Positions 18,410-28,863 of a DNA stretch of 44,773 bases are shown here, piece by piece. The notes under the pieces are model-generated. The model worked only from the letters and a program-made list of their open reading frames with translations, was not told the DNA's origin and did not search any database. The DNA comes from Escherichia phage vB_EcoS_UTEC10, in the sequence record PP291582.1. One strand, given 5' to 3'. How positions within the stretch are numbered: position 1 is the first letter of the stretch; the number at the start of each line of letters is the position of its first letter. Made by a program: the position numbers and the translations under genes.

Positions 18410-18921
18410 TGGATTGCGAGGAGTTACTACTTAAGGCGCATCTGCTGGCGCGTGGGTTTGACGCCGACCGTCTCCGGGTAGTCTTAGCCCATGGCGTTGC
18501 CACATTCTACTTGTGGGGTTTTGACGGTAGGCTACGCGGATACCAGCATTACAAGCCACATGCTGAAAAGAACTGCAAGAATCCAAAGGATGCGCGGTAT
18601 TTTACCAGAACAACAAGACCGTGTTTATGGGGGCTTGAGTACTTGCCGCGTAGCGGGACCGTATTTGTTACCGAAAGCATATTTAAAGCTGTTGCTTTGA
18701 TGAATTGCGGGTTTAATGCAGTTAGCGCATTGGGGTCGAACATACCAGCTGACTTACGGCAGCAAATGTCACTTTTGCCGTATGAATGGGTGTGCGCCGG
18801 TGACAATGATAGAGCGGGCTTAAAGTTCAGCAAAACATTCACCAGAGGATTTGTATCTAACGACCTCGATGAACTTTGTGAAGAAGAAATAACGTATCTT
18901 GCGAGGAAATTTACCAGATGA
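18406..18921 (+). CDS. Toprim-domain protein
   Basis: VFVTESIFKA ... VCAGDNDRAG gives the conserved Glu and DxD of a Toprim fold; ATGA overlap with the helicase gene. Confidence 0.5.
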   Translation: MMDCEELLLKAHLLARGFDADRLRVVLAHGVATFYLWGFDGRLRGYQHYKPHAEKNCKNPKDARYFTRTTRPCLWGLEYLPRSGTVFVTESIFKAVALMNCGFNAVSALGSNIPADLRQQMSLLPYEWVCAGDNDRAGLKFSKTFTRGFVSNDLDELCEEEITYLARKFTR

Positions 18922-19055
18922 ACATCATAGCCCCGATTCCCGCATTGCAAAAACGTATCAAGGAACTCGAAGAAGAGGTTCTACGACTACGGCAGCAAAG
19001 AGACGCCGCTAATGCGCAACTGGCGTTTGTACTGGAGAAGTTATCAGAAGAGTAG
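18918..19055 (+). CDS. small coiled-coil protein (45 aa)
   Basis: Manually translated (MNIIAPIPALQKRIKELEEEVLRLRQQRDAANAQLAFVLEKLSEE); ATGA overlap with the Toprim gene. Confidence 0.3.
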   Translation: MNIIAPIPALQKRIKELEEEVLRLRQQRDAANAQLAFVLEKLSEE

Positions 19056-19059
19056 AGAA

Positions 19060-19086
19060 AAGGCCCCGTTTGGGGCCTTAGTTTTA
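19060..19086. terminator. bidirectional Rho-independent terminator (AAGGCCCC-GTTT-GGGGCCTT)
   Basis: 8-bp GC stem with T-rich flanks on both strands between the convergent replication and tail operons; overlaps the tailspike stop codon. Confidence 0.65.
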
Positions 19087-20919
19087 AGCTTTTAATCCAT
19101 ATATAATAACTTCAACAGATATAGACGACCATGAAGTGTTGCCTTTTGCAGACGATGCACACAAAGAAAAACTAGCTGCTGTTTTATCCGTAACACTGAA
19201 AACCGGGCAGATGGTTTGCAACTGACTGAATGTGCCTTCGAGCGTAGCTGCAACAGTGTAATTGGTGTTCATATTAAAAGGGAGTGTTACAACTGCCGCA
19301 CCAGCGTCTCCCGAAGTCCTAGATACGGATATAGACCTTCTAATTACAAACTGCCCATTTCGCAACCCAGATAAAGTGAGATCTGTCCATCCGTCAACGA
19401 TATCAGATTCCGTAAATCCAATACCAACTTGGTCGTTGCTAGTAATAAATCGCGTGCCATCATACGTCCTTTTTAAAACTCTTGAATTACTCCCTAAGTA
19501 AAACTCTTTAGACATGGCGCTACGACATGTGACGTTTGTTAAATCAAAATAATTATGGTCAGCAGCATCCAAAATTAATGTATCTACATTTACTGTTCTA
19601 ATATTTTTCAGCACAACTTGTGAATATGATGTATTCGAAGCCATGCTAAGTAATGCAGCTGGCGCGGCGGATAAAGAAGGATCGTTGAACGCGTTATGGT
19701 CTTCTATGCTTAGCGAAACCAAGCCGTCCACGTAGAATACTGAATCTGCACCTGATTGCTCTGAGCCGCACCCTTTCATACTGAACGTAGCTAAATCGGT
19801 TCCTGCAGGGCCGCCTTTAAAGTAATAACCCCAGCGCGTGGTCTTATCACATGCGCAATTTACTATCGACGAATACCCACCGCCTAAATAATACCCTCGC
19901 TCCATCTGGTCCGCATAGCATTCACTGATATTAGTACTCGTCCCAGTCTTCTTGAAAAAACCAGTATCTACAATACTGCGCGCGACACATCGCTCTATCC
20001 GGCATATCCATGATCCAATGTCGTACCATCCAAATGTGAACCCAGTAAAAAAGCAGTCATGGATATAGCTATTCTCGGTTTGCCCAACATAAATAGCATA
20101 TTCAGCACCAACTGGTGATTCGAAACGCAATCCACTAATGCGGCAATACTTACTCTGGTTAGTGTCATTCAGAACTACCATCGCTGCGTTAACGTTAAAA
20201 TCATCGCCAAAGGCATCAGGCGCAGTAATTCCAGTTTTTTCCAGAGAATCCATAATGATTACAGCAGCACCTCCGTGCCCTTCAATCTCATAGTTATAAA
20301 AACCTTGATTGCGATATAGCAATGGCTTGGTGATTCGATAGCGCCGGGATGGAATGACTAGCTTTCTATTGTTAATCTGGCAATAATCCATTGCGGCCTG
20401 TATTGCAACTGAGTCATCTGCAACGCCGTCACCAACAGCGCCAAACATAGCGGGCGTTACCACATCTACCCCTTGCGACACAGTACCACCTTGCGGAAGT
20501 CCGATCATATCGGCACCTTGTGCAGACCCTAACTCCGTACGCAAATCCGGGTCTGTCTGCGGTTTCCAGTTAGCGTTCCCTACCGGGTTAAACGATGCAG
20601 GGACAACAACCGGAAGCGTACCCGCGTATGAGTACCAAGTACGGCTAACCGGGTCGTACACCACTTTGTCGCGGTCGTTAGCCGTGAGAGTGCCGCCGGT
20701 TGAAAAATCCCACGACACGGGAGAAAAGCCAGCGTCACGCAACACGGCCGGGAGGGTCTTCTGTGCCTGACCCGTAACAGCATTGGTCGCGTAATCAATA
20801 TCCGCGCCCCCAGCAACCCCGCCGGATTTACCTGTGATAACCTCGGCTTCGAAAATCTGGTGTTTTTTGGCGATCTGTAAATCCGCCAGGCTTAAAACGT
20901 CACCGCATCCGCTTGACAT
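19084..20919 (-). CDS. tailspike / receptor-binding protein with pectate-lyase-like beta-helix domain
   Basis: 611 aa; VVTPAMFGAVGDGVADDSVAIQAAMDYC is the signature start of pectate-lyase-3-type beta-helix depolymerase domains; last gene of the tail module; AAGAGGA RBS. Confidence 0.7.
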   Translation of the reverse strand: MSSGCGDVLSLADLQIAKKHQIFEAEVITGKSGGVAGGADIDYATNAVTGQAQKTLPAVLRDAGFSPVSWDFSTGGTLTANDRDKVVYDPVSRTWYSYAGTLPVVVPASFNPVGNANWKPQTDPDLRTELGSAQGADMIGLPQGGTVSQGVDVVTPAMFGAVGDGVADDSVAIQAAMDYCQINNRKLVIPSRRYRITKPLLYRNQGFYNYEIEGHGGAAVIIMDSLEKTGITAPDAFGDDFNVNAAMVVLNDTNQSKYCRISGLRFESPVGAEYAIYVGQTENSYIHDCFFTGFTFGWYDIGSWICRIERCVARSIVDTGFFKKTGTSTNISECYADQMERGYYLGGGYSSIVNCACDKTTRWGYYFKGGPAGTDLATFSMKGCGSEQSGADSVFYVDGLVSLSIEDHNAFNDPSLSAAPAALLSMASNTSYSQVVLKNIRTVNVDTLILDAADHNYFDLTNVTCRSAMSKEFYLGSNSRVLKRTYDGTRFITSNDQVGIGFTESDIVDGWTDLTLSGLRNGQFVIRRSISVSRTSGDAGAAVVTLPFNMNTNYTVAATLEGTFSQLQTICPVFSVTDKTAASFSLCASSAKGNTSWSSISVEVIIYGLKA

Positions 20920-20931
20920 ATAGAGTCCTCT

Positions 20932-23490
20932 TTAATTAAAACCATTGCTGAATCCGTCGGAGAAACCGCTGCCGTATGGCGCGACGCCGTCGTATTTATA
21001 GAATCCGTCGTCATAGTTGTAGCCCGTAATCTTGACCGTGCGGTCGTCGCCCGGGTCGATTGAAGAAACAACTATCTTCTGAGCATTATGCCTTGCTTCG
21101 TTGCCGAATGAAAACTCAGTTTTTAGTGCGCTATTCCCCGTGTAGATCGCCTCCTCCGGCGCGGAGAGCATAATCACTTCGCGGTCGTGGCTTCCTTTGA
21201 TAACAGAAATACTCTGCACGGAGCCATCGCGCTTCTTGAGGATGATGGAGTGGTCGTCACCGGGAGTAAACGTAATAGGCTGAGACAGCGTCAACGTAAG
21301 CCCATTAACGGCAACAACATAGCCGTCCTGTGGCGCGATACGTGAACCTTTAACCACGCTGATTACACCGCCGGGTGTGGCGAGCGCGCCTTCTTCAGTG
21401 GCTTCGAACTCTACGACAACTTTACTTAACGCGTTGCGCTGGTATCGACGCCACGCCAGCCAATATGCCTGTTGGTAGTTGCGTACACCCTTCGATTCGT
21501 ATTCCTCGGTGTTTGCGCCGAGTTCTTCCGGGATATAAATCGTTTCCTGTACGTTTGTATCCGGGTCAATGTACGAGAACGAAAGGCTATCGTATGTCGT
21601 GGAATCATTGAACGTGCGCGTCCATTTCTCCGTACCGGTCGTTTTACTGCGGTGGGTGAACACCATTTCAGGCCCCGCAACCGGACGGTCGAATCGCAGC
21701 ATAATATCCGCGCCTTTACGGTACGCGGTGCAGAACACGGCTTCCGCTATGGTCTGGACGATGTCCTGCATCGTGGTGTCGTAGTCGTCGAATGTGTAGC
21801 AGAATTGCCCGGCCAATTCGCTACCAAAATAGGACTCAATTTCTTCCTGCACAGCAAGTAACTTGTCCATGTTTGCCGTCGTCAGTTCCAGATTGCCCAC
21901 TGCAGGGTCGCGCGCCAGTCGAATTAGTGACTGCACAGCCTGGGTATTTGGCGACATTACTGTATCGAACACCCCATTGCCTAAGTATTTGTAGCACATC
22001 TCGGTCGCAATCATGCGCAGTTCCGGGTTGTCTATGCTGGCGGCACGTGGCGTCTGTTTACGGGCGCAATGTACGGTAGTTCTGTTGCCGTAGTGTGGGG
22101 TGGTGTCGAGTGATTGCCCATAAAGGTTGATGAAGGTTATCTCGTCGCTTACCGTTCCGTCGTAGTCCTTATCAAAATTCGTTATACGGCGCATACGGGC
22201 GCGGAAACGCGATGCGGTAGGCAACTGCCCATAAATGGTCGTACCGACGTAATCCGTGCTATTACCGGTAATCGTAGCCTGTACCGTGTAGATATCGCTC
22301 AACGGGTTGCGTTGAGAATCAATCATCTGGTACTGGAGTTCTACGGTTACGCTGGTGCGGTTATAGCCGCCGTCGTATTTGTAGAGACCGTTTTGCCCTG
22401 CAACGTTAACGAGCACCCGGTCAACTTCTCCCCGCACCATGTAGTACCAGTCTGAAAGCGAGGGTTCATAAGTGTCTTTAGGCCCGATAAACGTGATTGA
22501 TTGCTCGGTCAGGTTGTAGGTGGTGCTTCCGAGGTTAGGCCATTGGTTAGTACCGCCTGTAGCTATTCTCACCTCAAAATCGTCCACGTAAAGAACTTCA
22601 AACTCCCCGTCTAAAACGGCAACGTCCTTAACCCAAAATTCAGTTAAGACCGCGATGTCTCCGACGTTAAGAAACTCGGTGAAGGCGGAATCCCCAGAGC
22701 TATCATATATGTAGCCTATTTTAGTTGACGAGTCATAACGAACTTTCCCGTCGGCGCTCGGGTTAGCCCCAATGTCGTTTGGAGCTTTCAGTACAATACC
22801 GTCAACGTCGTCGTTGGAGTATGTCACATAGAGTTTCTGGTCAATGACGTCGCCGATTTGTAGTTGCGGAGATGTGGTGTTGTTCGGCGACGTATACGGC
22901 GCATACACGGCAACAGAGGAACCTGTGATGTCGCTTATCAGGGTGTCACCTTCCGTGACGCCATCAGCCTCAATATACAGATGCCCGCGCCCTGCGTCGT
23001 AGTATGAATACTCCAGCAAAGCACCGGTGGAGTTGAACGCCTTATACGTCTGCATCAGGTCGTTAGGGATTGTCTGTACAGTCCCGCAGATGTCATAAGA
23101 GCGCTCGTAAGGGCGTGGTTTGTTGGAGCGGTCTGTGAGGCTGTTATTTGGTGATGTTGTCTGGTTGTTAGTCGCCGTGTAGTTGGCGTTGGTGGCTGTG
23201 TTAAGGCCGAACAACTTGGCAATTGGCTTAAGGATAAAACCAAATACCTTACTAACGGCACCAAGCGCCCCGCTACCCGCTCCCTCAATAATGTGGTACA
23301 CGGCGTCCTCGTCTTTAAGCGCATCGAAGTCGTCCGTTACGTCTGTATCATCACCAATTTCGCCGAGGTAGACGCGCACAGGCACGCCGTCAGGAATACG
23401 GTTAACGACAAACTCCATCGGCGTCCCGACGTGTTTTGTACGGTCGAAAGCGCCATCAGCGTTTCGCGTGTAGTGCAGGATTATCGCCAA
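20932..23490 (-). CDS. central tail fibre / tail tip protein (lambda J-like, short form)
   Basis: 852 aa; SRFRARMRRITNFDKD resembles the conserved NIRMRRMT region of J-type tail tip proteins; follows the K-like gene. Confidence 0.65.
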   Translation of the reverse strand: MAIILHYTRNADGAFDRTKHVGTPMEFVVNRIPDGVPVRVYLGEIGDDTDVTDDFDALKDEDAVYHIIEGAGSGALGAVSKVFGFILKPIAKLFGLNTATNANYTATNNQTTSPNNSLTDRSNKPRPYERSYDICGTVQTIPNDLMQTYKAFNSTGALLEYSYYDAGRGHLYIEADGVTEGDTLISDITGSSVAVYAPYTSPNNTTSPQLQIGDVIDQKLYVTYSNDDVDGIVLKAPNDIGANPSADGKVRYDSSTKIGYIYDSSGDSAFTEFLNVGDIAVLTEFWVKDVAVLDGEFEVLYVDDFEVRIATGGTNQWPNLGSTTYNLTEQSITFIGPKDTYEPSLSDWYYMVRGEVDRVLVNVAGQNGLYKYDGGYNRTSVTVELQYQMIDSQRNPLSDIYTVQATITGNSTDYVGTTIYGQLPTASRFRARMRRITNFDKDYDGTVSDEITFINLYGQSLDTTPHYGNRTTVHCARKQTPRAASIDNPELRMIATEMCYKYLGNGVFDTVMSPNTQAVQSLIRLARDPAVGNLELTTANMDKLLAVQEEIESYFGSELAGQFCYTFDDYDTTMQDIVQTIAEAVFCTAYRKGADIMLRFDRPVAGPEMVFTHRSKTTGTEKWTRTFNDSTTYDSLSFSYIDPDTNVQETIYIPEELGANTEEYESKGVRNYQQAYWLAWRRYQRNALSKVVVEFEATEEGALATPGGVISVVKGSRIAPQDGYVVAVNGLTLTLSQPITFTPGDDHSIILKKRDGSVQSISVIKGSHDREVIMLSAPEEAIYTGNSALKTEFSFGNEARHNAQKIVVSSIDPGDDRTVKITGYNYDDGFYKYDGVAPYGSGFSDGFSNGFN

Positions 23491-23846
23491 AATTCAATCT
23501 CCGTGTACGTGTCTCTGAGGTCCGCCAGCCTGTCAAGCCGCACCTGACGTGAAGCAAGCTCGCAATGACTCACCATCCCGTCGAAGTAAACCCCCGCATG
23601 CCACACGATACGACCGCCGCGTCGATACCCCATAAGCACCGCGCAGAAGTTTTCAGGCTTATCAATCTTCGTAAGCCCCTTCGTGTCACGGTGGCCTTCG
23701 TCAAACGCTTCGTTAATTGCCGTTGGGCTTGTAACGTCGAACGCCGGTGTTTCTAACCCGGCATCCGCGCGGACAATGCGCACGTGATGCCAGCAATTGC
23801 GTTTGCGAAAGTCGTAAGGTATGCCCGTGTAGTCGTTAATATTCAT
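23481..23846 (-). CDS. tail assembly protein (lambda K-like, NlpC/P60-type Cys-His motif)
   Basis: 121 aa; NCWHHV ... HAGVY pattern; position between the minor tail gene and the J-like gene. Confidence 0.45.
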   Translation of the reverse strand: MNINDYTGIPYDFRKRNCWHHVRIVRADAGLETPAFDVTSPTAINEAFDEGHRDTKGLTKIDKPENFCAVLMGYRRGGRIVWHAGVYFDGMVSHCELASRQVRLDRLADLRDTYTEIEFWR

Positions 23847-24358
23847 GTGGTCAACAGGCCGCGTAATAACGGTATCTCTTTAGGTGTCATCAGTATACCA
23901 GTGCTTCGTTGGTTCAGCATAGGTGTACCGACATCCGCAGAGAACTCACCCTTCTCTTGGTTTATAGCCTGCAACTCATACACGACAGGGCCGTCAGCTG
24001 GATAAGACAGGTCTGTGCTGACGTAACGGCGAAAAATAAACTTCGGCAACTCGGTGTTACTCATCGGGATTTTATCCATCTCATCATCCAGTTGATTGAG
24101 AATATCCGGTAAAGTAAACGTCGTCGTCTGGTCCATATCACTGTTGTTAGCGGCCCCCGACGCTTCCATCGGTGTTGGCTCGAACGTGATAGTTTCGCCG
24201 GTCTCCAGTGTTGCCGTGAGTTCCTGCAGCCCGCGCACAAGATAATACGTCTTCGACAGCAACGGGTGGCTTATTTGCAACGTGACGTAGTCCATCTCGC
24301 CGTCGGGGTTTGAGGCCAGCTTACGGCGATAGGCTGCTTCTACTGATTCCTGACTCAT
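23843..24358 (-). CDS. minor tail protein
   Basis: 171 aa; assigned by synteny in the tape-measure to J block. Confidence 0.45.
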   Translation of the reverse strand: MSQESVEAAYRRKLASNPDGEMDYVTLQISHPLLSKTYYLVRGLQELTATLETGETITFEPTPMEASGAANNSDMDQTTTFTLPDILNQLDDEMDKIPMSNTELPKFIFRRYVSTDLSYPADGPVVYELQAINQEKGEFSADVGTPMLNQRSTGILMTPKEIPLLRGLLTT

Positions 24359-24361
24359 AAG

Positions 24362-25750
24362 TTAACCGTCCACATTAAAATCAATACGGGTGATATATTT
24401 ACTACCCCACGCAGAATCAGCCTGCGGGATGATGGCGTAATCGTCAACAGCCGTAACGTTTACCACAGAGCCGTCGGAATAGGTAATGTCGATGCTTGTC
24501 GCGCCGTTCATTACTACTTTTGCTGATGCCGTTGTTCTATCTCCTGCAATAGCTGATGTCTGTATGTAACTGGTAGTATTTGCCGATTTCTCTAACTGCG
24601 CGCCCCATACATAAATGCCATTTCCCCCCGTACCCGCGAATATTGAGGATGTGCCGGATGCGAGCTGCACCCGGATAACAGAGTTTCTAGTTGCGCCCGC
24701 CTGGAAGACCATTGTTACCCGATATGTGTCCTCGGAAACCATAACGGCATTTTTTGATACAAAATTAACTCCTGAGTTCGCGACAAATGCGCCAGTAGCA
24801 GGGTTGAATGTTGCGGTCGCTATGGTGCCCGTTGCCACCCTCAGATAAAGGTTTAGTGGGTTGCTAGTGGCTTTTACAAATATTGAATATGAATACAGCT
24901 CATCTTGCTGCACTCCTATCGTCCTGTCGTTGGCGTAATGCTCAGAATTTGAAGTTGTCGCAGTGATTTCTGCCATAGTTATATCACCACGGGGCGATAC
25001 TTCAGCATTATTCCGCACAAATGTTTGGGGTCCAGTTCCCCATGTTTCCGAATTTATGTACAAATTGCGCGAGGCATCTTCTGGCGGCACCCGCCCAACA
25101 GCTTTACCATCAATAAACGTAAGGGGCCATTCATTGGTGGCGGACGGCACAAGATTGCCGTTGCGGTTGATGTAGTAAACCTGTGGCCCGTCATACACAA
25201 TGCGGCTATCCAGGGCGGACGCCAGAAGGTTAATCGGCGGGTATCCTGCAGGCCCTTCATTGCTCCAGATGCGCGGGAACGTCGTCTCATAGTTAGCGTA
25301 TATTTTCAGGAAACTACCCAGGCAGTCACCATAGCAGCCGTACAAATCTGGCAGATTGTTAATCAGGCACTGGTTCTCAAGGTCCTGGAACGGTGATTTC
25401 TCGGCGGTTGCCGTGAAAGTAATCGTCCAGTTAATGCCGTCTTCGGTGGATTCCGCGATGGTTGACGTGATGGTTACCTGATAATCCTCAATACCCATGC
25501 CGAAGTCGTGCGCCATCCAGAAACTTGACGCACCGCCGTCTACTTTTTCGAGGAACGACAGAAACGCCTGCCGCCCCAGCGCCGATGTAATCAGGGTTAC
25601 GCTTATCGGGAACACGTCGTAATATGTGTCGCGCCCCTGACGCACCCCGCCGCCCGCTAAATCGACACTCCAGACGTTGTTACGTCGGGTCATTGAGTAG
25701 CCTTTCGATACCACCGGCTTAAGGCTACGTGGGAAATATAAGTCGCTCAT
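24362..25750 (-). CDS. distal tail / minor tail protein with C-terminal beta-sandwich-like domain
   Basis: 462 aa immediately downstream of the tape measure gene; C-terminal GIYVWGAQLE-type motif. Confidence 0.5.
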   Translation of the reverse strand: MSDLYFPRSLKPVVSKGYSMTRRNNVWSVDLAGGGVRQGRDTYYDVFPISVTLITSALGRQAFLSFLEKVDGGASSFWMAHDFGMGIEDYQVTITSTIAESTEDGINWTITFTATAEKSPFQDLENQCLINNLPDLYGCYGDCLGSFLKIYANYETTFPRIWSNEGPAGYPPINLLASALDSRIVYDGPQVYYINRNGNLVPSATNEWPLTFIDGKAVGRVPPEDASRNLYINSETWGTGPQTFVRNNAEVSPRGDITMAEITATTSNSEHYANDRTIGVQQDELYSYSIFVKATSNPLNLYLRVATGTIATATFNPATGAFVANSGVNFVSKNAVMVSEDTYRVTMVFQAGATRNSVIRVQLASGTSSIFAGTGGNGIYVWGAQLEKSANTTSYIQTSAIAGDRTTASAKVVMNGATSIDITYSDGSVVNVTAVDDYAIIPQADSAWGSKYITRIDFNVDG

Positions 25751-28092
25751 TATTTAAACCCCGGCGCGTTTCTTGTGGCCTTGCGGGCCTTGCTAATCTT
25801 ACTGTTGCTGTTCTGCAAAGATGCAGCAACTTGCTCTTCTATGATGATACGCAGACGGCCTTCATCATCCTGCTCGGTGGATACGTTGCCAATCTGACTC
25901 GATGTATTATTTACAATGGTAACATTAGATGGGCCGGAAGAAGACCCGTTTTGCCCCATAATTTCTTTCATCTGCTGCGCGGTGCGCACACGCGATGCGC
26001 CAGCGGGCATGATAACTTCGGGTTTACCGCGTTCAGCGATGGTGGAAGCCTGCCCTGCGGATAACTGTCCGCCCTGTTCACGCGCGGACCGGATAGCGGA
26101 AACCTGCGCCATACCCGCCCCAACGGCAGCGGCAGCGGCTACGGGGGCCAGGAACGGGCCAACTACAGGGATAGCGGCCGTTGACTTATAAGCCTCAATA
26201 GCTGCTGTGTACGTGGCTATGGTGGCCTGTACGATAGCGAATGCCTTATACGCACCAGAGGCCTCGCCCAACGCAGACCCGATGTTTGACGCCATGTTAC
26301 CGAAGGCGGTTGCCGTTGCGTCGGCACGCTTGGTGGCGTATTGCTCGTTGATGGCGTTAAGCGCGGCCTGATACTGCTTCTCACTAATAAGCCCTTGCTC
26401 ACGGTACTTATCTGCGACCGCCAGTTTCTGCTGCTCCTGGATGTCGAGAAGATCAAGCTCAGTAGCGTTCTGGCCAATAATCTGAGCCATGAAGTCGTCG
26501 CCTTTCTGCTTTTTCTCCTGCCGTTCTTTCTCGCGCTTATCCAATTCTTGCTGCCGTGCGGTATCCGCCTCCAGCATAATCTGAGTTTTGGCGTTCTCGT
26601 ATTGTTGGTCGCTAAGAAGCCTATTGCCATAGAACTCCTGTAGCTTGGTTAGCTGCTGTTCCTGGTTGGCTTCTATTTTCTGGAATACGTCATCATTGAG
26701 ATGAATCGACTGGTAGTAGAAATCCTCAGCAGCTTTCTTCTGGCGCTCGAACGCATCCGCGGCTTTCTTAGCGGCTTTTGCACCAGCGCTATCATCTTCG
26801 GATCCGCCACCAGTACCCGTTACCTTAAATTTACTAAGCCCTTCTTCCTTAGCAGCCTCTTTGTCGATGTCATACGCCGCGCGTTTAAGCGCGACGATAT
26901 TTTGCTGAGCCTCCACCTGTTCACGGAAACTTTTACGGGTCAGGTCAGCAACATCGCGCTGAGTATCCAGTGCCATCCCCAGCTGGAAGTTGATATTTTT
27001 TGCTACGTCTACAGATTCACCTGGTGTGAAGGCCGCTTTCACTAGTCGCCCAGCGTCCTGTGCCCCTTTAACCATATCCTCAAAGAAGCGCTCCATAGCG
27101 GTGAATTCTTCTGCGATGAAATCGAGAGCATCGGCGGCGGATTCCGCTATGGTTGTCGCCGTTTGTTCGCCGCTGTCAGTGATACTTTTACTGCTAAAAT
27201 CCCAAAGTTCATTCAGTCCGTTTATCGCATCGCCTACGAAGCCGAACGCGGCGTCAAACGACGTCTCTATGGCGCTGCCTACTTCTGACGCGATGTCGCC
27301 CCACATACGCATCTCAGCAGCAAGCTCCCCAGATGCAACCTGTGCATTAAGCTCCTGGATTAAGTCATCTATGTATCTGATAGGTTCGGCTAGGGCGCCA
27401 ACATCAAGACTGGTGGCCAGTGTCATTTTTAACTGCGACCATGAGTCGCTGGCACTGGCTATAGCGCCGTTGAGTGTGTTGGCCTGGTCCGCCATAGCAC
27501 CCGCAAAGTTTACGTTACCAATGTTAAGAAGGTACTGCTCGATATCAGCAGCGCTCTTCTTAACTACCGTAGTGGTGCCCTGGAATGTAAATTCAACATC
27601 GTTTTTGTTCTGCTTGGCCTTGATGCCGAACTCTTTAAGGCGCTCAAATTCAAATGTACTGGCGTCCGCAACGGCCTCAATCATCTGATTCAGGTCTTTA
27701 CCCATAGCGGCGGCGGTGTTGCCGTAGGAGCGCAACGCTTCTTCTGATGGGGTGAGGCCGAGCGCCACAAGTTTACGGAAACCCTCTACTGCCTGCTCGA
27801 GCCCGTAAGGAGTGTCGCGCGCGAAGTCTTGCAGGATGCTTAATGCCTGTCTTGCGCCCTGTGTGCTCCCGGTTAACGTTTTCAGGCTGGCGGACATCTT
27901 GTCCAGTTGCCGTTGGGAGTCCACCAGTTCCTGCGCGGCCTTGTAAGCGGTAGCGGCGACAATTGAAGCAAGGCCCGCTACGGCGGTCCCCGCTACTTTT
28001 GCCGACTTGGAGAGATTATCAAGACGGTCCGATGTAGCTTTCGCGCCTTGCTCTGATACTTTTACAACTAAACTAGCTACATCAGCCATCAT
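25750..28092 (-). CDS. tail tape measure protein
   Basis: 780 aa, long helical/coiled-coil protein rich in Ala/Gln/Glu; location downstream of the chaperone pair. Confidence 0.8.
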   Translation of the reverse strand: MMADVASLVVKVSEQGAKATSDRLDNLSKSAKVAGTAVAGLASIVAATAYKAAQELVDSQRQLDKMSASLKTLTGSTQGARQALSILQDFARDTPYGLEQAVEGFRKLVALGLTPSEEALRSYGNTAAAMGKDLNQMIEAVADASTFEFERLKEFGIKAKQNKNDVEFTFQGTTTVVKKSAADIEQYLLNIGNVNFAGAMADQANTLNGAIASASDSWSQLKMTLATSLDVGALAEPIRYIDDLIQELNAQVASGELAAEMRMWGDIASEVGSAIETSFDAAFGFVGDAINGLNELWDFSSKSITDSGEQTATTIAESAADALDFIAEEFTAMERFFEDMVKGAQDAGRLVKAAFTPGESVDVAKNINFQLGMALDTQRDVADLTRKSFREQVEAQQNIVALKRAAYDIDKEAAKEEGLSKFKVTGTGGGSEDDSAGAKAAKKAADAFERQKKAAEDFYYQSIHLNDDVFQKIEANQEQQLTKLQEFYGNRLLSDQQYENAKTQIMLEADTARQQELDKREKERQEKKQKGDDFMAQIIGQNATELDLLDIQEQQKLAVADKYREQGLISEKQYQAALNAINEQYATKRADATATAFGNMASNIGSALGEASGAYKAFAIVQATIATYTAAIEAYKSTAAIPVVGPFLAPVAAAAAVGAGMAQVSAIRSAREQGGQLSAGQASTIAERGKPEVIMPAGASRVRTAQQMKEIMGQNGSSSGPSNVTIVNNTSSQIGNVSTEQDDEGRLRIIIEEQVAASLQNSNSKISKARKATRNAPGFK

Positions 28093-28441
28093 TTCTACCC
28101 TCGAAAATAGCGTCTAAGCTCATGATGATGCCAGATTCAAACATGCCTATATTCTGGCCTGAAACGGTGCTGTACGCCACTAAATCCGACCATCTTAACT
28201 GTTCACGCGGGTACATCTTGATGCCATCATCGTCCACTCGGCGGGTGAATTTGATTTCCCGGTACTTCTCGAAGGTGGTTAGTAGCTCAGGGGGGCATTC
28301 TGGCCCGGTGTCCTGCGTTGCTTCCGGCGCGTCTTGCATAACCCCCATAGCAATTAGCGCGGCTTTATGCCCGTCGGAGATACTGTCAAACTCCCGCCGT
28401 TTGTGGCGAGTTATGAAGTTCCAACGGGCAAACTGGAGCAA
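28082..28441 (-). CDS. tail assembly chaperone, T-like frame (probable -1 frameshift extension of the G-like gene)
   Basis: ORF lies in the -1 frame relative to 28447..28863 and is open from 28474; GGAAAAG sits just before the G stop codon. Confidence 0.45.
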   Translation of the reverse strand: MLQFARWNFITRHKRREFDSISDGHKAALIAMGVMQDAPEATQDTGPECPPELLTTFEKYREIKFTRRVDDDGIKMYPREQLRWSDLVAYSTVSGQNIGMFESGIIMSLDAIFEGRNDG

Positions 28442-28446
28442 CGCGT

Positions 28447-28863
28447 CTACTTTTCCTGCAATTGGTGTAGCTGTTCATTGTGGAAAACAACAACGTGTTC
28501 AGCGAGGCGTTTATATTGTGAGAAAAGGGTATTCAGGTTCTCTTTATTAAATTCATCGTCGAGACTCCAACCGTTAACTAGTTCAAGTGCTAACTGGCGG
28601 TTAAGGTCCGTCGCGGCGTCTTCCATCTTAATATTGTATTCCGAGAAATCTTTCAGTTCCTCGCATTTATCACGAAGCGGTTTCAATTTACCTAATGCCG
28701 CGCGGTACGCAAGTGTAAACGCCCTCATAGCTTTAACAGCAACGTCTGCCTCCGGTGAAACAACGTTAAGCCACTCCCCTGAATCGGTGCCGTCTTTCAG
28801 TGGGATCGGCATACGGGCGCCTTTTTCCGCCTCAGCTTCGTAATAAAAATCGGAAAGTTTCAT
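28447..28863 (-). CDS. tail assembly chaperone (lambda G-like)
   Basis: 138 aa acidic protein immediately upstream of the T-frame ORF and tape measure gene. Confidence 0.5.
   Translation of the reverse strand: MKLSDFYYEAEAEKGARMPIPLKDGTDSGEWLNVVSPEADVAVKAMRAFTLAYRAALGKLKPLRDKCEELKDFSEYNIKMEDAATDLNRQLALELVNGWSLDDEFNKENLNTLFSQYKRLAEHVVVFHNEQLHQLQEK

What the first reader, a model, noticed from the sequence alone, without database searches (positions are those of the whole stretch)
19084..23490. Receptor-binding apparatus: short J-like tail tip followed by a separate beta-helix tailspike
The J-like protein (852 aa) appears to lack a long C-terminal receptor-binding extension, and a separate 611-aa protein with a pectate-lyase-like signature follows. 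Adsorption specificity probably resides in an exchangeable depolymerase-type tailspike, so host range may be set by a surface polysaccharide.
Basis: partly seen in the sequence, partly recalled or inferred. Interest (0 to 1): 0.4.

Follow-up and report, generated by a model that had tools for sequence, protein, structure and literature searches.

The report
Kagunavirus tail tip with exchangeable tailspike
This is the ordinary, already described host-recognition gear of a Kagunavirus-type E. coli phage: a tail-tip hub protein with no receptor-binding end, followed by a swappable sugar-cutting tailspike that most likely sets host range.

Summary

- **Origin.** The window is a Kagunavirus (Guernseyvirinae), 98-99% identical here to Escherichia phages M01 and CR01.
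- **J-like protein.** It is a TipJ-family hub. It matches solved Sf11 gp14 and lambda gpJ, aligns only to lambda J residues 176-532, and ends about 90 residues later. The lambda-type C-terminal fibre and receptor domain are absent.
- **Exchangeability.** DNA homology to other Kagunaviruses stops at codon 65 and resumes at the stop codon. The same receptor domain (from residue 136) sits on P22-like, Kuttervirus and Gamaleyavirus anchors.

The target glycan is unknown (literature subtype "X2").

Seen outside the finding: the distal tail protein (24362..25750), the tailspike dock in Sf11, carries a hypervariable domain related to the GTA head-spike fibre. This domain differs even between phages with near-identical tailspikes.

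The parts
19054..19079 (-). Intrinsic terminator ending the tail operon (AAGGCCCC-AAAC-GGGGCCTT followed by a T-rich tail), 5 nt after the tailspike stop codon
   Evidence: Read directly from the sequence. RNA fold gives -15.5 kcal/mol, z -4.5 against shuffles. The flank 18918-19086 is 93% identical to Bas71, and homology ends exactly at the stop codon.
19084..20919 (-). Tailspike gene, 611 aa, intact ORF
   Evidence: PHROG 14879 'tail fiber protein' E 4.6e-131. Eight 92-99% identical 611-aa proteins occur on 26-45 kb metagenome contigs.
20725..20919 (-). Tailspike residues 1-65: virion anchor conserved across the subfamily
   Evidence: The first 50 residues are 92% identical to Bas71 and 90% to Jersey, while the rest of the protein is 12-60%. 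DNA homology to other Kagunaviruses ends at 20726. tblastn finds 507 phage records covering at least 80% of residues 1-150; those listed are Guernseyvirinae-type siphoviruses. By position it corresponds to Sf11 gp13 residues 4-59, which bind the distal tail protein (PMC12724387). This correspondence is an inference.
20515..20724 (-). Tailspike residues 66-135: connector or neck domain of the TSP1/gp66 'Tail_spike_N' type
   Evidence: Pfam PF18668, E 0.0015, below cutoff. Homologues carry precomputed PF18668. BLASTP to Sf11 gp13 residues 51-136, E 0.006. Several homologue classes join the window protein at residues 53 or 72.
19480..20514 (-). Tailspike residues 136-480: right-handed parallel beta-helix, the presumed glycan-binding and catalytic body
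19087..19479 (-). Tailspike residues 481-611: C-terminal beta-sandwich domain
   Evidence: All-beta secondary structure, pLDDT 82-94 after residue 520. It travels together with the beta-helix in all receptor-domain homologues.
20932..23490 (-). J-like tail-tip hub (baseplate hub 2 protein, TipJ family), 852 aa, with no lambda-type C-terminal fibre or receptor-binding domain
   Evidence: Collinear to its last residues with solved Sf11 gp14 (query 833 aligns to 823 of 828).
22393..22820 (-). Variable stretch inside the J-like protein (about residues 224-366)
   Evidence: No DNA homology to Bas71 here, while the flanks are 86-87% identical. Protein identity is 32-40% over residues 251-350 (32-74% across 151-450), against 88-100% after residue 450. 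It probably corresponds to the Ig-like insertion HDII-ins3 proposed as a possible antireceptor in Jersey (PMC13243795). This correspondence is an inference.
23481..23846 (-). 121-aa minor tail protein, gpK-like by position
   Evidence: PHROG 329 'minor tail protein' E 5.6e-12. Annotated as an endopeptidase in relatives. The similarity to lambda gpK is not significant.
23843..24358 (-). 171-aa gpL-like hub protein (DUF1833; baseplate hub 1 position)
   Evidence: Pfam PF08875 E 6.8e-16 and PHROG 396 E 1.6e-51. Same position as Sf11 gp16, although BLASTP finds no similarity to it.
24362..25750 (-). Distal tail protein, 462 aa: likely docking ring for the tailspikes, with a C-terminal appendage
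   Evidence: phmmer to Sf11 gp17 (PDB 9occ_C) E 3.8e-62; 37% identity over residues 50-460. In Sf11, six tailspike trimers bind a helix of this protein (PMC12724387). Residues 1-162 are conserved at 78-94% in Guernseyvirinae.
24533..25078 (-). Hypervariable core of the distal tail protein appendage (about residues 225-406), related to the GTA head-spike fibre
   Evidence: NCBIfam NF048003, 86 bits against a cutoff of 36, residues 224-406. No DNA homology even to M01. Identity is 19-42% between any two of 8 relatives (one pair 66%), while the flanks are 73-98%. Best hit among 50,697 phage records is 36.6%. Best among 1.84 billion representative proteins is 49%.
25750..28092 (-). Tape measure protein, 780 aa, upstream end of the tail-tip module
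   Evidence: PHROG 1538 E 4.6e-207. Same length as Sf11 gp18.

Best explanation
The window is a Kagunavirus-type siphophage. Its tail-tip operon on the minus strand runs in this order: tape measure, distal tail protein, gpL-like, gpK-like, J-like hub, tailspike, terminator.

The J-like protein (852 aa) forms the trimeric closed hub of the tail tip. It has no lambda- or T5-type C-terminal fibre or receptor-binding domain.

Host recognition is delegated to the 611-aa tailspike, which has four parts:
- a subfamily-conserved N-terminal anchor (about residues 1-65);
- a connector domain (about residues 66-135);
- a right-handed beta-helix (136-480);
- a C-terminal beta-sandwich (481-611).

Trimers of this protein most likely dock on the hexameric distal tail protein ring, as in Shigella phage Sf11. 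They would bind and cleave a strain-specific surface polysaccharide, most probably an O-antigen, bringing the hub to the outer membrane.

The segment from residue 66 or 136 to the stop codon is a recombination cassette. It moves between siphoviruses, P22-like prophages, Kutterviruses and Gamaleyaviruses, so host range follows the cassette.

Shown here: gene order, folds, homologies, mosaic boundaries. Inferred: trimer state, docking site, enzymatic cleavage, glycan class.
For: **Identity of the phage.** 98-99% nucleotide identity to phages M01 and CR01, and 88-91% over the J gene to ST20, K1G and K1H.

**Hub.**
- NF040662 TipJ, 383 bits.
- Foldseek: Sf11 gp14 E 1e-45, lambda gpJ about 1e-28, T1, T5 pb3.
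- hhalign to lambda J residues 176-532 only.
- Collinear to the C-terminus with Sf11 gp14, which is solved as a hub.

**Tailspike.**
- AlphaFold2 mean pLDDT 80.8 with a beta-helix.

**Exchangeability.**
- Only 3 of 476 matching phage records share the C-terminal 1.46 kb.
- The flanks are conserved in about 470 records.
- Breakpoints lie at 20726 and at the stop codon.
- Homologues at 42-86% identity carry PF09008 (P22 head-binding) or PF18668 N-termini, or sit on 70-kb and 155-kb contigs.
- Annotated examples: ECML-4 RBP3 83%, PGN829.1 RBP2 55%, U1G 57%.

**Docking.** The distal tail protein is homologous to Sf11 gp17. The most conserved tailspike segment (residues 1-50) and distal tail protein residues 1-200 are co-conserved.

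**Biology of relatives.**
- CR and M phages lyse only strain U1007 and not MG1655.
- Kagunaviruses depend on O-antigen or the K1 capsule, with the tailspike encoded directly downstream of J (PMC11990801).
Against: - No enzymatic or adsorption data exist for this phage or for any member of this receptor-domain subtype. PMC10408124 lists it as 'X2' with no serogroup.
- Catalytic residues cannot be assigned at 10-18% identity to solved tailspikes.
- The tailspike's first 50 residues show no detectable sequence similarity to the Sf11 gp13 anchor, so docking on the distal tail protein rests on position and partner homology only.
- The BASEL authors read their micrographs as three appendages presented on the J-like protein.
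- The J-like protein has a variable insertion, and the distal tail protein has a hypervariable fibre-like domain. Either could contribute to specificity.
Confidence: 0.8

Rival explanations
1. The tailspike is only the first step. A second, essential receptor interaction is made by the hub itself (the variable Ig-like insertion of the J-like protein) or by the hypervariable appendage of the distal tail protein. Host range would then be set by two or three modules, not by the tailspike alone.
For: - J residues about 224-366 lack DNA homology to Bas71, while the flanks are 86-87% identical.
- PMC13243795 proposes the Ig-like insertion of Jersey gpJ-like gp32 as a possible antireceptor.
- The distal tail protein core belongs to the GTA head-spike fibre family. 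That fibre binds capsular polysaccharide (PMC10218006).
- The core differs (22-36% identity) between phages whose tailspikes are 98-99% identical.
- Related domains sit in a tail fibre gene of Tequintavirus IME178.
Against: - Jerseyvirus jersey has a 166-aa distal tail protein with no appendage at all, so the appendage is dispensable for the basic mechanism.
- The J variant is not coupled to tailspike type: ST20 has the same J but a different receptor domain.
- BASEL phenotyping found Kagunaviruses fully dependent on the O-antigen. Its authors argue that this is the only and terminal receptor.
Confidence: 0.3
2. The tailspike targets a capsule (K antigen), colanic acid or another exopolysaccharide rather than an O-antigen.
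For: - Kagunaviruses K1G and K1H use K1-capsule endosialidase spikes at this locus.
- Residues 129-221 match the phi92 gp150 entry 6e0v (E 5.3e-12) and PHROG 6117 'colanic acid degradation' (E 8.6e-11). Paula and ECGD1, which match only the first 65 residues of the receptor domain, are annotated 'colanidase tailspike'.
- Several top structural hits are capsule depolymerases.
Against: - The colanidase-type matches cover only the N-terminal cap of the beta-helix, not the body.
- Full-length receptor-domain homologues sit in P22-like prophages of E. coli and Citrobacter, in the RBP3 slot of Kuttervirus ECML-4 and in the RBP2 slot of a Gamaleyavirus. O-antigen spikes are the characterised cases at such positions (HK620 O18, CBA120 O157 and O77, G7C O22), although K1-capsule spikes sit in the corresponding slot of Kaguna- and Kayfunaviruses.
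- CR and M have a one-strain host range, which does not fit the widely conserved colanic acid.
Confidence: 0.2
3. The beta-helix protein binds but does not depolymerise its glycan, or it modifies the glycan in another way.
Against: Eight acidic residues in the helix body are invariant across 63 homologues down to 42% identity. The closest full-length structural matches are enzymatically active tailspikes. BASEL describes the Kagunavirus tailspikes it characterised as enzymatic pectin-lyase-like spikes.
Confidence: 0.12
4. The J-like protein recognises an outer-membrane protein (FhuA, OmpC, LamB, OmpF or TonB). This was predicted by machine learning for the near-identical proteins of CR01 and M01.
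For: Random-forest predictions in PMC10754912.
Against: - The predictions were not validated and differ between feature sets.
- The protein lacks any counterpart of the lambda J residues beyond 532, which hold the LamB-binding end.
- CR and M do not plate on MG1655. By general knowledge of K-12, that strain makes all of these proteins.
- In those GenBank records the real tailspike gene is split into fragments. Only the 828/852-aa J-like 'phage protein' of CR and M was fed to the classifier.
Confidence: 0.04

Closest known systems
Kagunavirus phages of the BASEL collection (Bas70-76) and K1G/K1H/K1ind (Guernseyvirinae)
   Same: Same genus-level genome and the same tail-tip gene order, with the tailspike directly downstream of the J-like hub gene. 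The anchor is conserved and the receptor domain is variable.
   Different: The receptor domain is unrelated in sequence: 12-28% identity to Bas71 beyond residue 200. K1G and K1H carry endosialidase domains. The specificity of the window's domain is unknown (subtype X2).
Escherichia phages M01 (OR061069), CR01 (OR061068) and vB_Eco_AMO_3701M (PQ474795)
   Same: 92-99% nucleotide identity across both genes, with the same tailspike receptor domain.
   Different: In the M01 and CR01 records the tailspike is split or truncated, and in M01 several other genes are fragmented too; the window has them intact. The core of the distal tail protein has no DNA homology to M01.
Shigella phage Sf11 tail tip (PDB 9OCC; Cedarrivervirus)
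   Same: Same module order and nearly the same sizes: tape measure 780/780, distal tail protein 457/462, hub 828/852, tailspike 585/611. The hub and distal tail protein are homologous. It provides the structural model: six spike trimers on the distal tail protein ring.
   Different: Hub identity is only 27% and the gpL-position proteins are not detectably similar. No gpK-like gene is annotated at the corresponding position in Sf11. The tailspike anchors are not detectably similar in their first 50 residues.
Salmonella phage Jersey hub (gp30/gp32) and P22-like tailspike gp33
   Same: Same subfamily. The J-like protein is 60% identical and, as published, lacks a lambda- or T5-type antireceptor. 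The tailspike anchor is 90% identical over its first 50 residues.
   Different: Jersey's distal tail protein is a minimal 166 aa without the appendage. The alignment shows 12-30% identity to Jersey's tailspike beyond residue 100.
Lambda gpJ central tail fibre
   Same: Homologous hub core, with a Foldseek E of about 1e-28 and hhalign probability 95%. The gene sits at the end of the M-L-K-I-J type module.
   Different: Lambda J has 600 further residues beyond the matched region, whereas the window protein ends 92 residues after it. The window protein also has about 250 extra N-terminal residues.
Kuttervirus ECML-4 RBP3 (YP_009101512) and Gamaleyavirus PGN829.1 RBP2 / U1G tailspike
   Same: The receptor domain is homologous: 83%, 55% and 57% identity over residues 136-611. 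ECML-4 RBP3 and PGN829.1 RBP2 are grouped together as subtype X2 in PMC10408124.
   Different: The N-terminal anchors and the virion types are entirely different (myovirus and N4-like podovirus).

Membership tests
Phage tailspike of the pectin-lyase-like right-handed beta-helix class | Right-handed parallel beta-helix body | tested here: met
Phage tailspike of the pectin-lyase-like right-handed beta-helix class | Curated sequence-family match | tested here: met
   Pfam PF12708, 28.2 bits against a gathering cutoff of 27, covering residues 159-219 only. The match is marginal. PHROG 14879 E 4.6e-131.
Phage tailspike of the pectin-lyase-like right-handed beta-helix class | Modular build: conserved N-terminal virion anchor plus exchangeable receptor domain | tested here: met
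   Breakpoints at codon 65 and at the stop codon. Receptor-domain homologues carry four other anchor types. Conservation jumps from about 0.25 to about 0.8 at residue 150-175.
Phage tailspike of the pectin-lyase-like right-handed beta-helix class | Homotrimer | not testable with these tools
   Only monomer prediction is available. The low pLDDT of residues 1-60 and 123-151 would fit regions that fold only in an assembled trimer.
Phage tailspike of the pectin-lyase-like right-handed beta-helix class | Polysaccharide-cleaving active site (acidic residues in the groove) | tested here: inconclusive
   D235, D252, E282, D288, D300, D358, D375 and E387 are invariant in 63 homologues. They cannot be mapped to known catalytic sites at 10-18% identity.
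TipJ / lambda gpJ tail-tip hub family | Curated family model above cutoff | tested here: met
   NCBIfam NF040662, 383 bits against a cutoff of 140, residues 355-832 matching model positions 4-477 of 477.
TipJ / lambda gpJ tail-tip hub family | Hub fold shared with solved gpJ-type proteins | tested here: met
   Foldseek: 9occ_E E 1e-45 (TM 0.59/0.68), lambda 8k35/8xcg/8iyk E 1e-28 to 1e-26, T1 9l9p, T5 7zhj. The model is of moderate quality (pLDDT 65).
TipJ / lambda gpJ tail-tip hub family | Lambda-type C-terminal central fibre with receptor-binding domain | tested here: not met
   The hhalign match ends at lambda residue 532 of 1132, and only 92 residues follow in the window protein. The protein ends in register with Sf11 gp14. 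It is therefore a hub-only member, not a lambda-like central fibre.
Sf11-type apparatus (tailspikes docked on the distal tail protein ring) | Homologue of the distal tail protein gp17, including the region that carries the adaptor helix | tested here: met
   phmmer E 3.8e-62. BLASTP gives 37% identity over residues 50-460, spanning Sf11 residues 110-157.
Sf11-type apparatus (tailspikes docked on the distal tail protein ring) | Tailspike N-terminal helices homologous to gp13 residues 4-59 | tested here: inconclusive
   phmmer found no gp13 hit at E up to 1. BLASTP aligns only residues 53-141 with gp13 51-136, E 0.006. The first 50 residues are not detectably similar.
Sf11-type apparatus (tailspikes docked on the distal tail protein ring) | Physical contact between tailspike and distal tail protein; six trimers per virion | not testable with these tools
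   Requires multimer prediction or cryo-EM. The literature disagrees: six in Sf11 and in Ackermann's drawing of Jersey, three suggested for Kagunavirus.
Genus Kagunavirus, subfamily Guernseyvirinae | Genome-level nucleotide similarity and synteny with classified members | tested here: met
   The 4.4-kb region is 88-91% identical over the J gene to K1G, K1H, ST20 and XY1, and 98-99% to M01 and CR01. The tail module is syntenic with Bas71 and Jersey.

The most novel reading that the evidence does not exclude
The tailspike may not be the only, or the fastest-changing, specificity element of this apparatus. The distal tail protein carries a cassette of about 180 residues (window 24533..25078) of the GTA head-spike-fibre family. 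Its linkers are conserved even across genera.

The cassette differs (19-42% identity) between almost every pair of relatives examined, including phages whose tailspike and hub are 95-99% identical. The window's variant has no relative above 49% identity among 1.84 billion representative proteins.

If this domain is a second, independently exchanged glycan-binding receptor module, then O-antigen-dependent small siphoviruses have a two-key recognition system. Current descriptions instead state 'a single receptor-binding protein'.
Probability: 0.3. Interest if true: 0.45.

Novelty: already known. Interest (0 to 1): 0.18.

Why it matters
For the finding as stated, it matters little. It re-derives from raw sequence what is already published for Kagunavirus and Guernseyvirinae, and near-identical genomes are already in GenBank.

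There are three practical points.

1. The only paper on the closest phages (CR01, M01) fed the J-like hub protein to a machine-learning classifier, which returned porin-type receptors. Their real tailspike gene is broken in the deposited records. The intact gene here argues for a glycan receptor instead.
2. The receptor domain belongs to a subtype (X2) shared by four phage morphotype lineages, and its target serogroup is still unassigned. A strain that supports three such phages (U1007) offers a direct way to assign it.
3. The cassette boundaries (20726 or 20514, and the stop codon) are ready-made junctions for engineering host range.

Tried and rejected
- **Lambda gpI-like N-terminus.** I suspected that the N-terminus of the J-like protein is a fused lambda gpI, because of a beta-grasp followed by a Gly-rich hydrophobic stretch and the absence of a separate I gene. 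hhalign gave probability 1% and E 0.05, and Pfam gave nothing at E up to 10. This is left as an unproven resemblance. NCBI does name some homologues 'MoaD/ThiS family'.
- **Target serogroup.** I could not assign it. Megablast of the receptor domain against 5,426 complete E. coli genomes found only two horse isolates at 80% identity over 56% of the query. The tailspike-modularity paper lists the subtype as X2 with no prediction. The Ackermannviridae subtype paper gives no host for ECML-4's TSP3 in the passages retrieved. The host of PGN829.1 is 'serotype O8', but at 55% identity this is only a lead, and that paper assigns O8 to another RBP, a Lederbergvirus prophage spike.
- **Colanidase reading.** Rejected, because the matches to phi92 gp150 and to the colanic-acid PHROG cover only the helix cap.
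- **gpK identity of the 121-aa ORF.** BLASTP to lambda K was not significant.
- **gpL-position protein against Sf11 gp16.** No similarity.
- **Terminator scan.** The consensus scan missed the obvious hairpin after the tailspike gene. I read it directly and folded it instead.
- **Exact-sequence look-up of the distal tail protein.** Nothing on record.

Full report
**Observation.** The J-like gene is transcribed first. The tailspike gene follows after 12 nt, behind an AGAGGA ribosome-binding site. It is followed 5 nt after its stop by a strong hairpin terminator, -15.5 kcal/mol, z -4.5.

The TTG start is plausible. A GGAG lies 8 nt upstream and the start overlaps the stop of the preceding gene. 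The first 24 residues are conserved as protein in distant relatives. Many gene callers instead start at Met25, giving 828 aa.

**What the window is.** The 4.4-kb region is 99.0% and 98.1% identical to Escherichia phages M01 and CR01. Its J gene is 88-91% identical to those of ST20, K1G, K1H and other Kagunaviruses of the subfamily Guernseyvirinae. The surrounding minus-strand operon runs: tail assembly chaperones, tape measure (780 aa), a 462-aa protein, a DUF1833 gpL-like protein (171 aa), a 121-aa minor tail protein, the J-like protein, and the tailspike.

**The J-like protein.** It passes the curated NCBIfam model for TipJ-family proteins: NF040662, 383 bits against a cutoff of 140, residues 355-832. 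By sequence it matches the solved baseplate hub 2 protein gp14 of Shigella siphophage Sf11 (PDB 9occ_E, E 2.6e-26). The match is collinear from residue 33 to residue 833, which aligns with 823 of 828.

An AlphaFold2 model of moderate quality (mean pLDDT 65) finds the following by Foldseek:
- Sf11 gp14, E 1e-45;
- lambda gpJ in four tail-tip entries (three of lambda, one of Ur-lambda), E 1e-28 to 5e-25;
- the T1 tail tip;
- T5 pb3.

A profile comparison places residues 428-760 on lambda J residues 176-532 (probability 95%).

[quoted passage not shown] That paper also describes an N-terminal globular domain on a tether and an Ig-like insertion that may touch the cell surface. In the window I see the counterparts: a predicted beta-grasp at residues 1-70 and a variable stretch at about residues 224-366 that lacks DNA homology to Kagunavirus Bas71.

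**The tailspike.** The AlphaFold2 model (mean pLDDT 80.8) has four regions:
- a low-confidence N-terminus (residues 1-60);
- a small beta domain (about residues 65-122);
- a long beta-helix (about residues 160-480, pLDDT mostly 85-98);
- a C-terminal beta-sandwich.

At sequence level the Pfam pectate-lyase-like match is marginal: PF12708, 28.2 bits against a cutoff of 27, residues 159-219. Eight acidic residues in the helix body are invariant in 63 homologues down to 42% identity. This fits an active site but does not prove one.

**Exchangeability.** This is the best-supported part of the interpretation.
- Of 476 phage records that match the region, only three share the C-terminal 1.46 kb of the tailspike gene. 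Both flanks are conserved in about 470 records.
- Against Bas71, DNA homology runs up to the tailspike stop codon (18918-19086, 93%), is absent from 19087 to 20725, and resumes at 20726, which is codon 65.
- A search of 5.8 billion proteins with residues 115-611 found homologues at 42-86% identity fused to other N-termini. These include the P22 head-binding domain PF09008 in 591-aa E. coli and Citrobacter prophage proteins, joining at residue 136. They also include PF18668-type N-termini on 155-kb contigs, and 628-aa proteins on 70-kb contigs.
- In annotated phages the domain is RBP3 of Kuttervirus ECML-4 (83%), RBP2 of Gamaleyavirus PGN829.1 (55%), and a tailspike of phage U1G (57%).
- This is the pattern of horizontal transfer described in PMC10408124. 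Its supplement groups ECML-4 RBP3 and PGN829.1 RBP2 as subtype 'X2' with no assigned serogroup.

**Evidence for a glycan receptor.** It is indirect but consistent. CR01, M01 and U1G were all isolated on one clinical strain, E. coli U1007. CR and M lyse essentially only that strain and not MG1655 (PMC10754912), which is known to be rough. All three carry related receptor domains. BASEL phenotyping shows that Kagunaviruses depend completely on O-antigen, or on the K1 capsule for K1G. That paper states that the tailspike is encoded directly downstream of the J-like protein (PMC11990801).

I rate O-antigen as more likely than capsule. The characterised spikes at the other three anchor positions (P22-like prophages, Kuttervirus RBP3, Gamaleyavirus RBP2) are mostly O-antigen spikes. 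The target itself remains unknown.

**How the spike is mounted.** The Sf11 cryo-EM study (PMC12724387) shows six tailspike trimers. Each is held by a four-helix bundle formed by tailspike residues 4-59 and an adaptor helix of the hexameric distal tail protein gp17. The hub gp14 carries no fibre.

The window's 462-aa protein (24362..25750) is a clear gp17 homologue: E 3.8e-62, 37% identity over residues 50-460. The module is the same in order and almost the same in sizes. Within the subfamily, the most conserved tailspike segment is its first 50 residues (90-92%). The distal tail protein N-terminal 200 residues are 96-100% identical within the genus.

I therefore infer that the spikes dock on the distal tail protein rather than on J, with moderate confidence. 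The first 50 residues of the two tailspikes are not detectably similar, and the BASEL authors suggested three spikes presented on J.

**Seen outside the finding.** The distal tail protein is itself mosaic.
- Residues 1-200 are 96-98% identical among six of the seven Kagunavirus-type sequences compared, and 73-76% to fBC-Eco01.
- Residues 411-462 are 73-94% identical among all eight, Sf11 included. A stalk at about residues 163-224 is also nearly identical to Sf11.
- The core, residues 221-405, is only 19-42% identical between almost any two of the eight sequences.

The core matches the NCBIfam GTA head-spike-fibre domain: NF048003, 86 bits against a cutoff of 36. The RcGTA head-spike fibre binds capsular polysaccharide (PMC10218006).

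Two metagenome contigs have tailspikes 98-99% identical to the window's and hubs 95% identical overall. The hub difference lies almost entirely in the shorter start called for those genes. Their distal tail protein cores are nevertheless only 22-36% identical to the window's. Even M01 lacks DNA homology there.

The window's variant has no relative above 36.6% identity in 50,697 phage records. The best hits include a tail fibre gene of Tequintavirus IME178. Among 1.84 billion representative proteins none exceeds 49%, although the domain family is very large, with 6,479 hits, and is often tandemly repeated. Jersey has a minimal 166-aa distal tail protein with no appendage. The Sf11 authors call the equivalent appendage 'of currently unknown function'. 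This is a lead for a second specificity module, not a demonstrated one.

**Verdict.** However, the architecture is already described for this genus and subfamily, and near-identical sequences are already deposited. Novelty: already known. Interest is low (0.18). The only elements of some freshness are:
- the correction of the receptor assignment for the CR01/M01 clade;
- the unassigned X2 receptor-domain subtype;
- the hypervariable core of the distal tail protein.

Noticed in passing
window 24362..25750 (-), core 24533..25078: The distal tail protein carries a hypervariable domain of about 180 residues from the GTA head-spike-fibre family (NF048003), between linkers conserved even across genera. 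Phages with 98-99% identical tailspikes have cores only 22-36% identical. The window's variant has no relative above 49% identity in 1.84 billion representative proteins. It may be a second receptor-binding cassette.
   Followed up: partly
window 22393..22820 (-), J-like residues about 224-366: A variable stretch inside the J-like hub protein: no DNA homology to Bas71, while the flanks are 86-87% identical. It is not coupled to tailspike type. It probably equals the Ig-like insertion proposed as a possible antireceptor in phage Jersey (PMC13243795).
   Followed up: partly
window 23281..23490 (-), J-like residues 1-70, and the linker to about residue 135: A predicted beta-grasp domain, followed by a Gly-rich hydrophobic helix (78-94) and a disordered linker. 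NCBI names some homologues 'MoaD/ThiS family'. It resembles lambda gpI by eye and no separate gpI gene exists, but hhalign is not significant (probability 1%). The first 80 residues are not modelled in the Sf11 structure.
   Followed up: partly
window 23481..23846 (-): The 121-aa ORF between the gpL-like and J-like genes has an N-terminal 'NCWHH' motif. It aligns with the cysteine region of lambda gpK (annotated as a C40 family peptidase), and the ORF is annotated as an endopeptidase in some relatives. The similarity is not significant. No homologue is annotated at this position in Sf11.
   Followed up: partly
window 28447..28863 and 28082..28441 (-): Two adjacent tail assembly chaperone ORFs match the two halves of one 259-aa PHROG family (phrog_15027). 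This suggests a programmed translational frameshift of the lambda G/GT type.
   Followed up: no
L001 (phage M01, OR061069), whole locus: In the GenBank record of the closest relative, the tailspike, distal tail protein, DNA polymerase and helicase genes are each split into several small CDS. These are probably sequencing frameshifts; the window has all of them intact. The published receptor prediction for CR and M (PMC10754912) fed only their J-like hub protein to the classifier.
   Followed up: partly
window 25750..28092 (-): The tape measure protein is 51% identical to that of Kagunavirus Bas71 but 80% identical to that of Jerseyvirus jersey. The tail module is therefore mosaic beyond the receptor-binding parts.
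   Followed up: no
phage U1G (MZ394712) 61922..63318; CR01; M01: Three phages of two unrelated types (a 73-kb N4-like podovirus and 45-kb siphoviruses), isolated from different waters on the same E. coli strain U1007, carry homologous tailspike receptor domains (57% identity). This is a natural experiment for assigning the receptor of subtype X2.
   Followed up: partly
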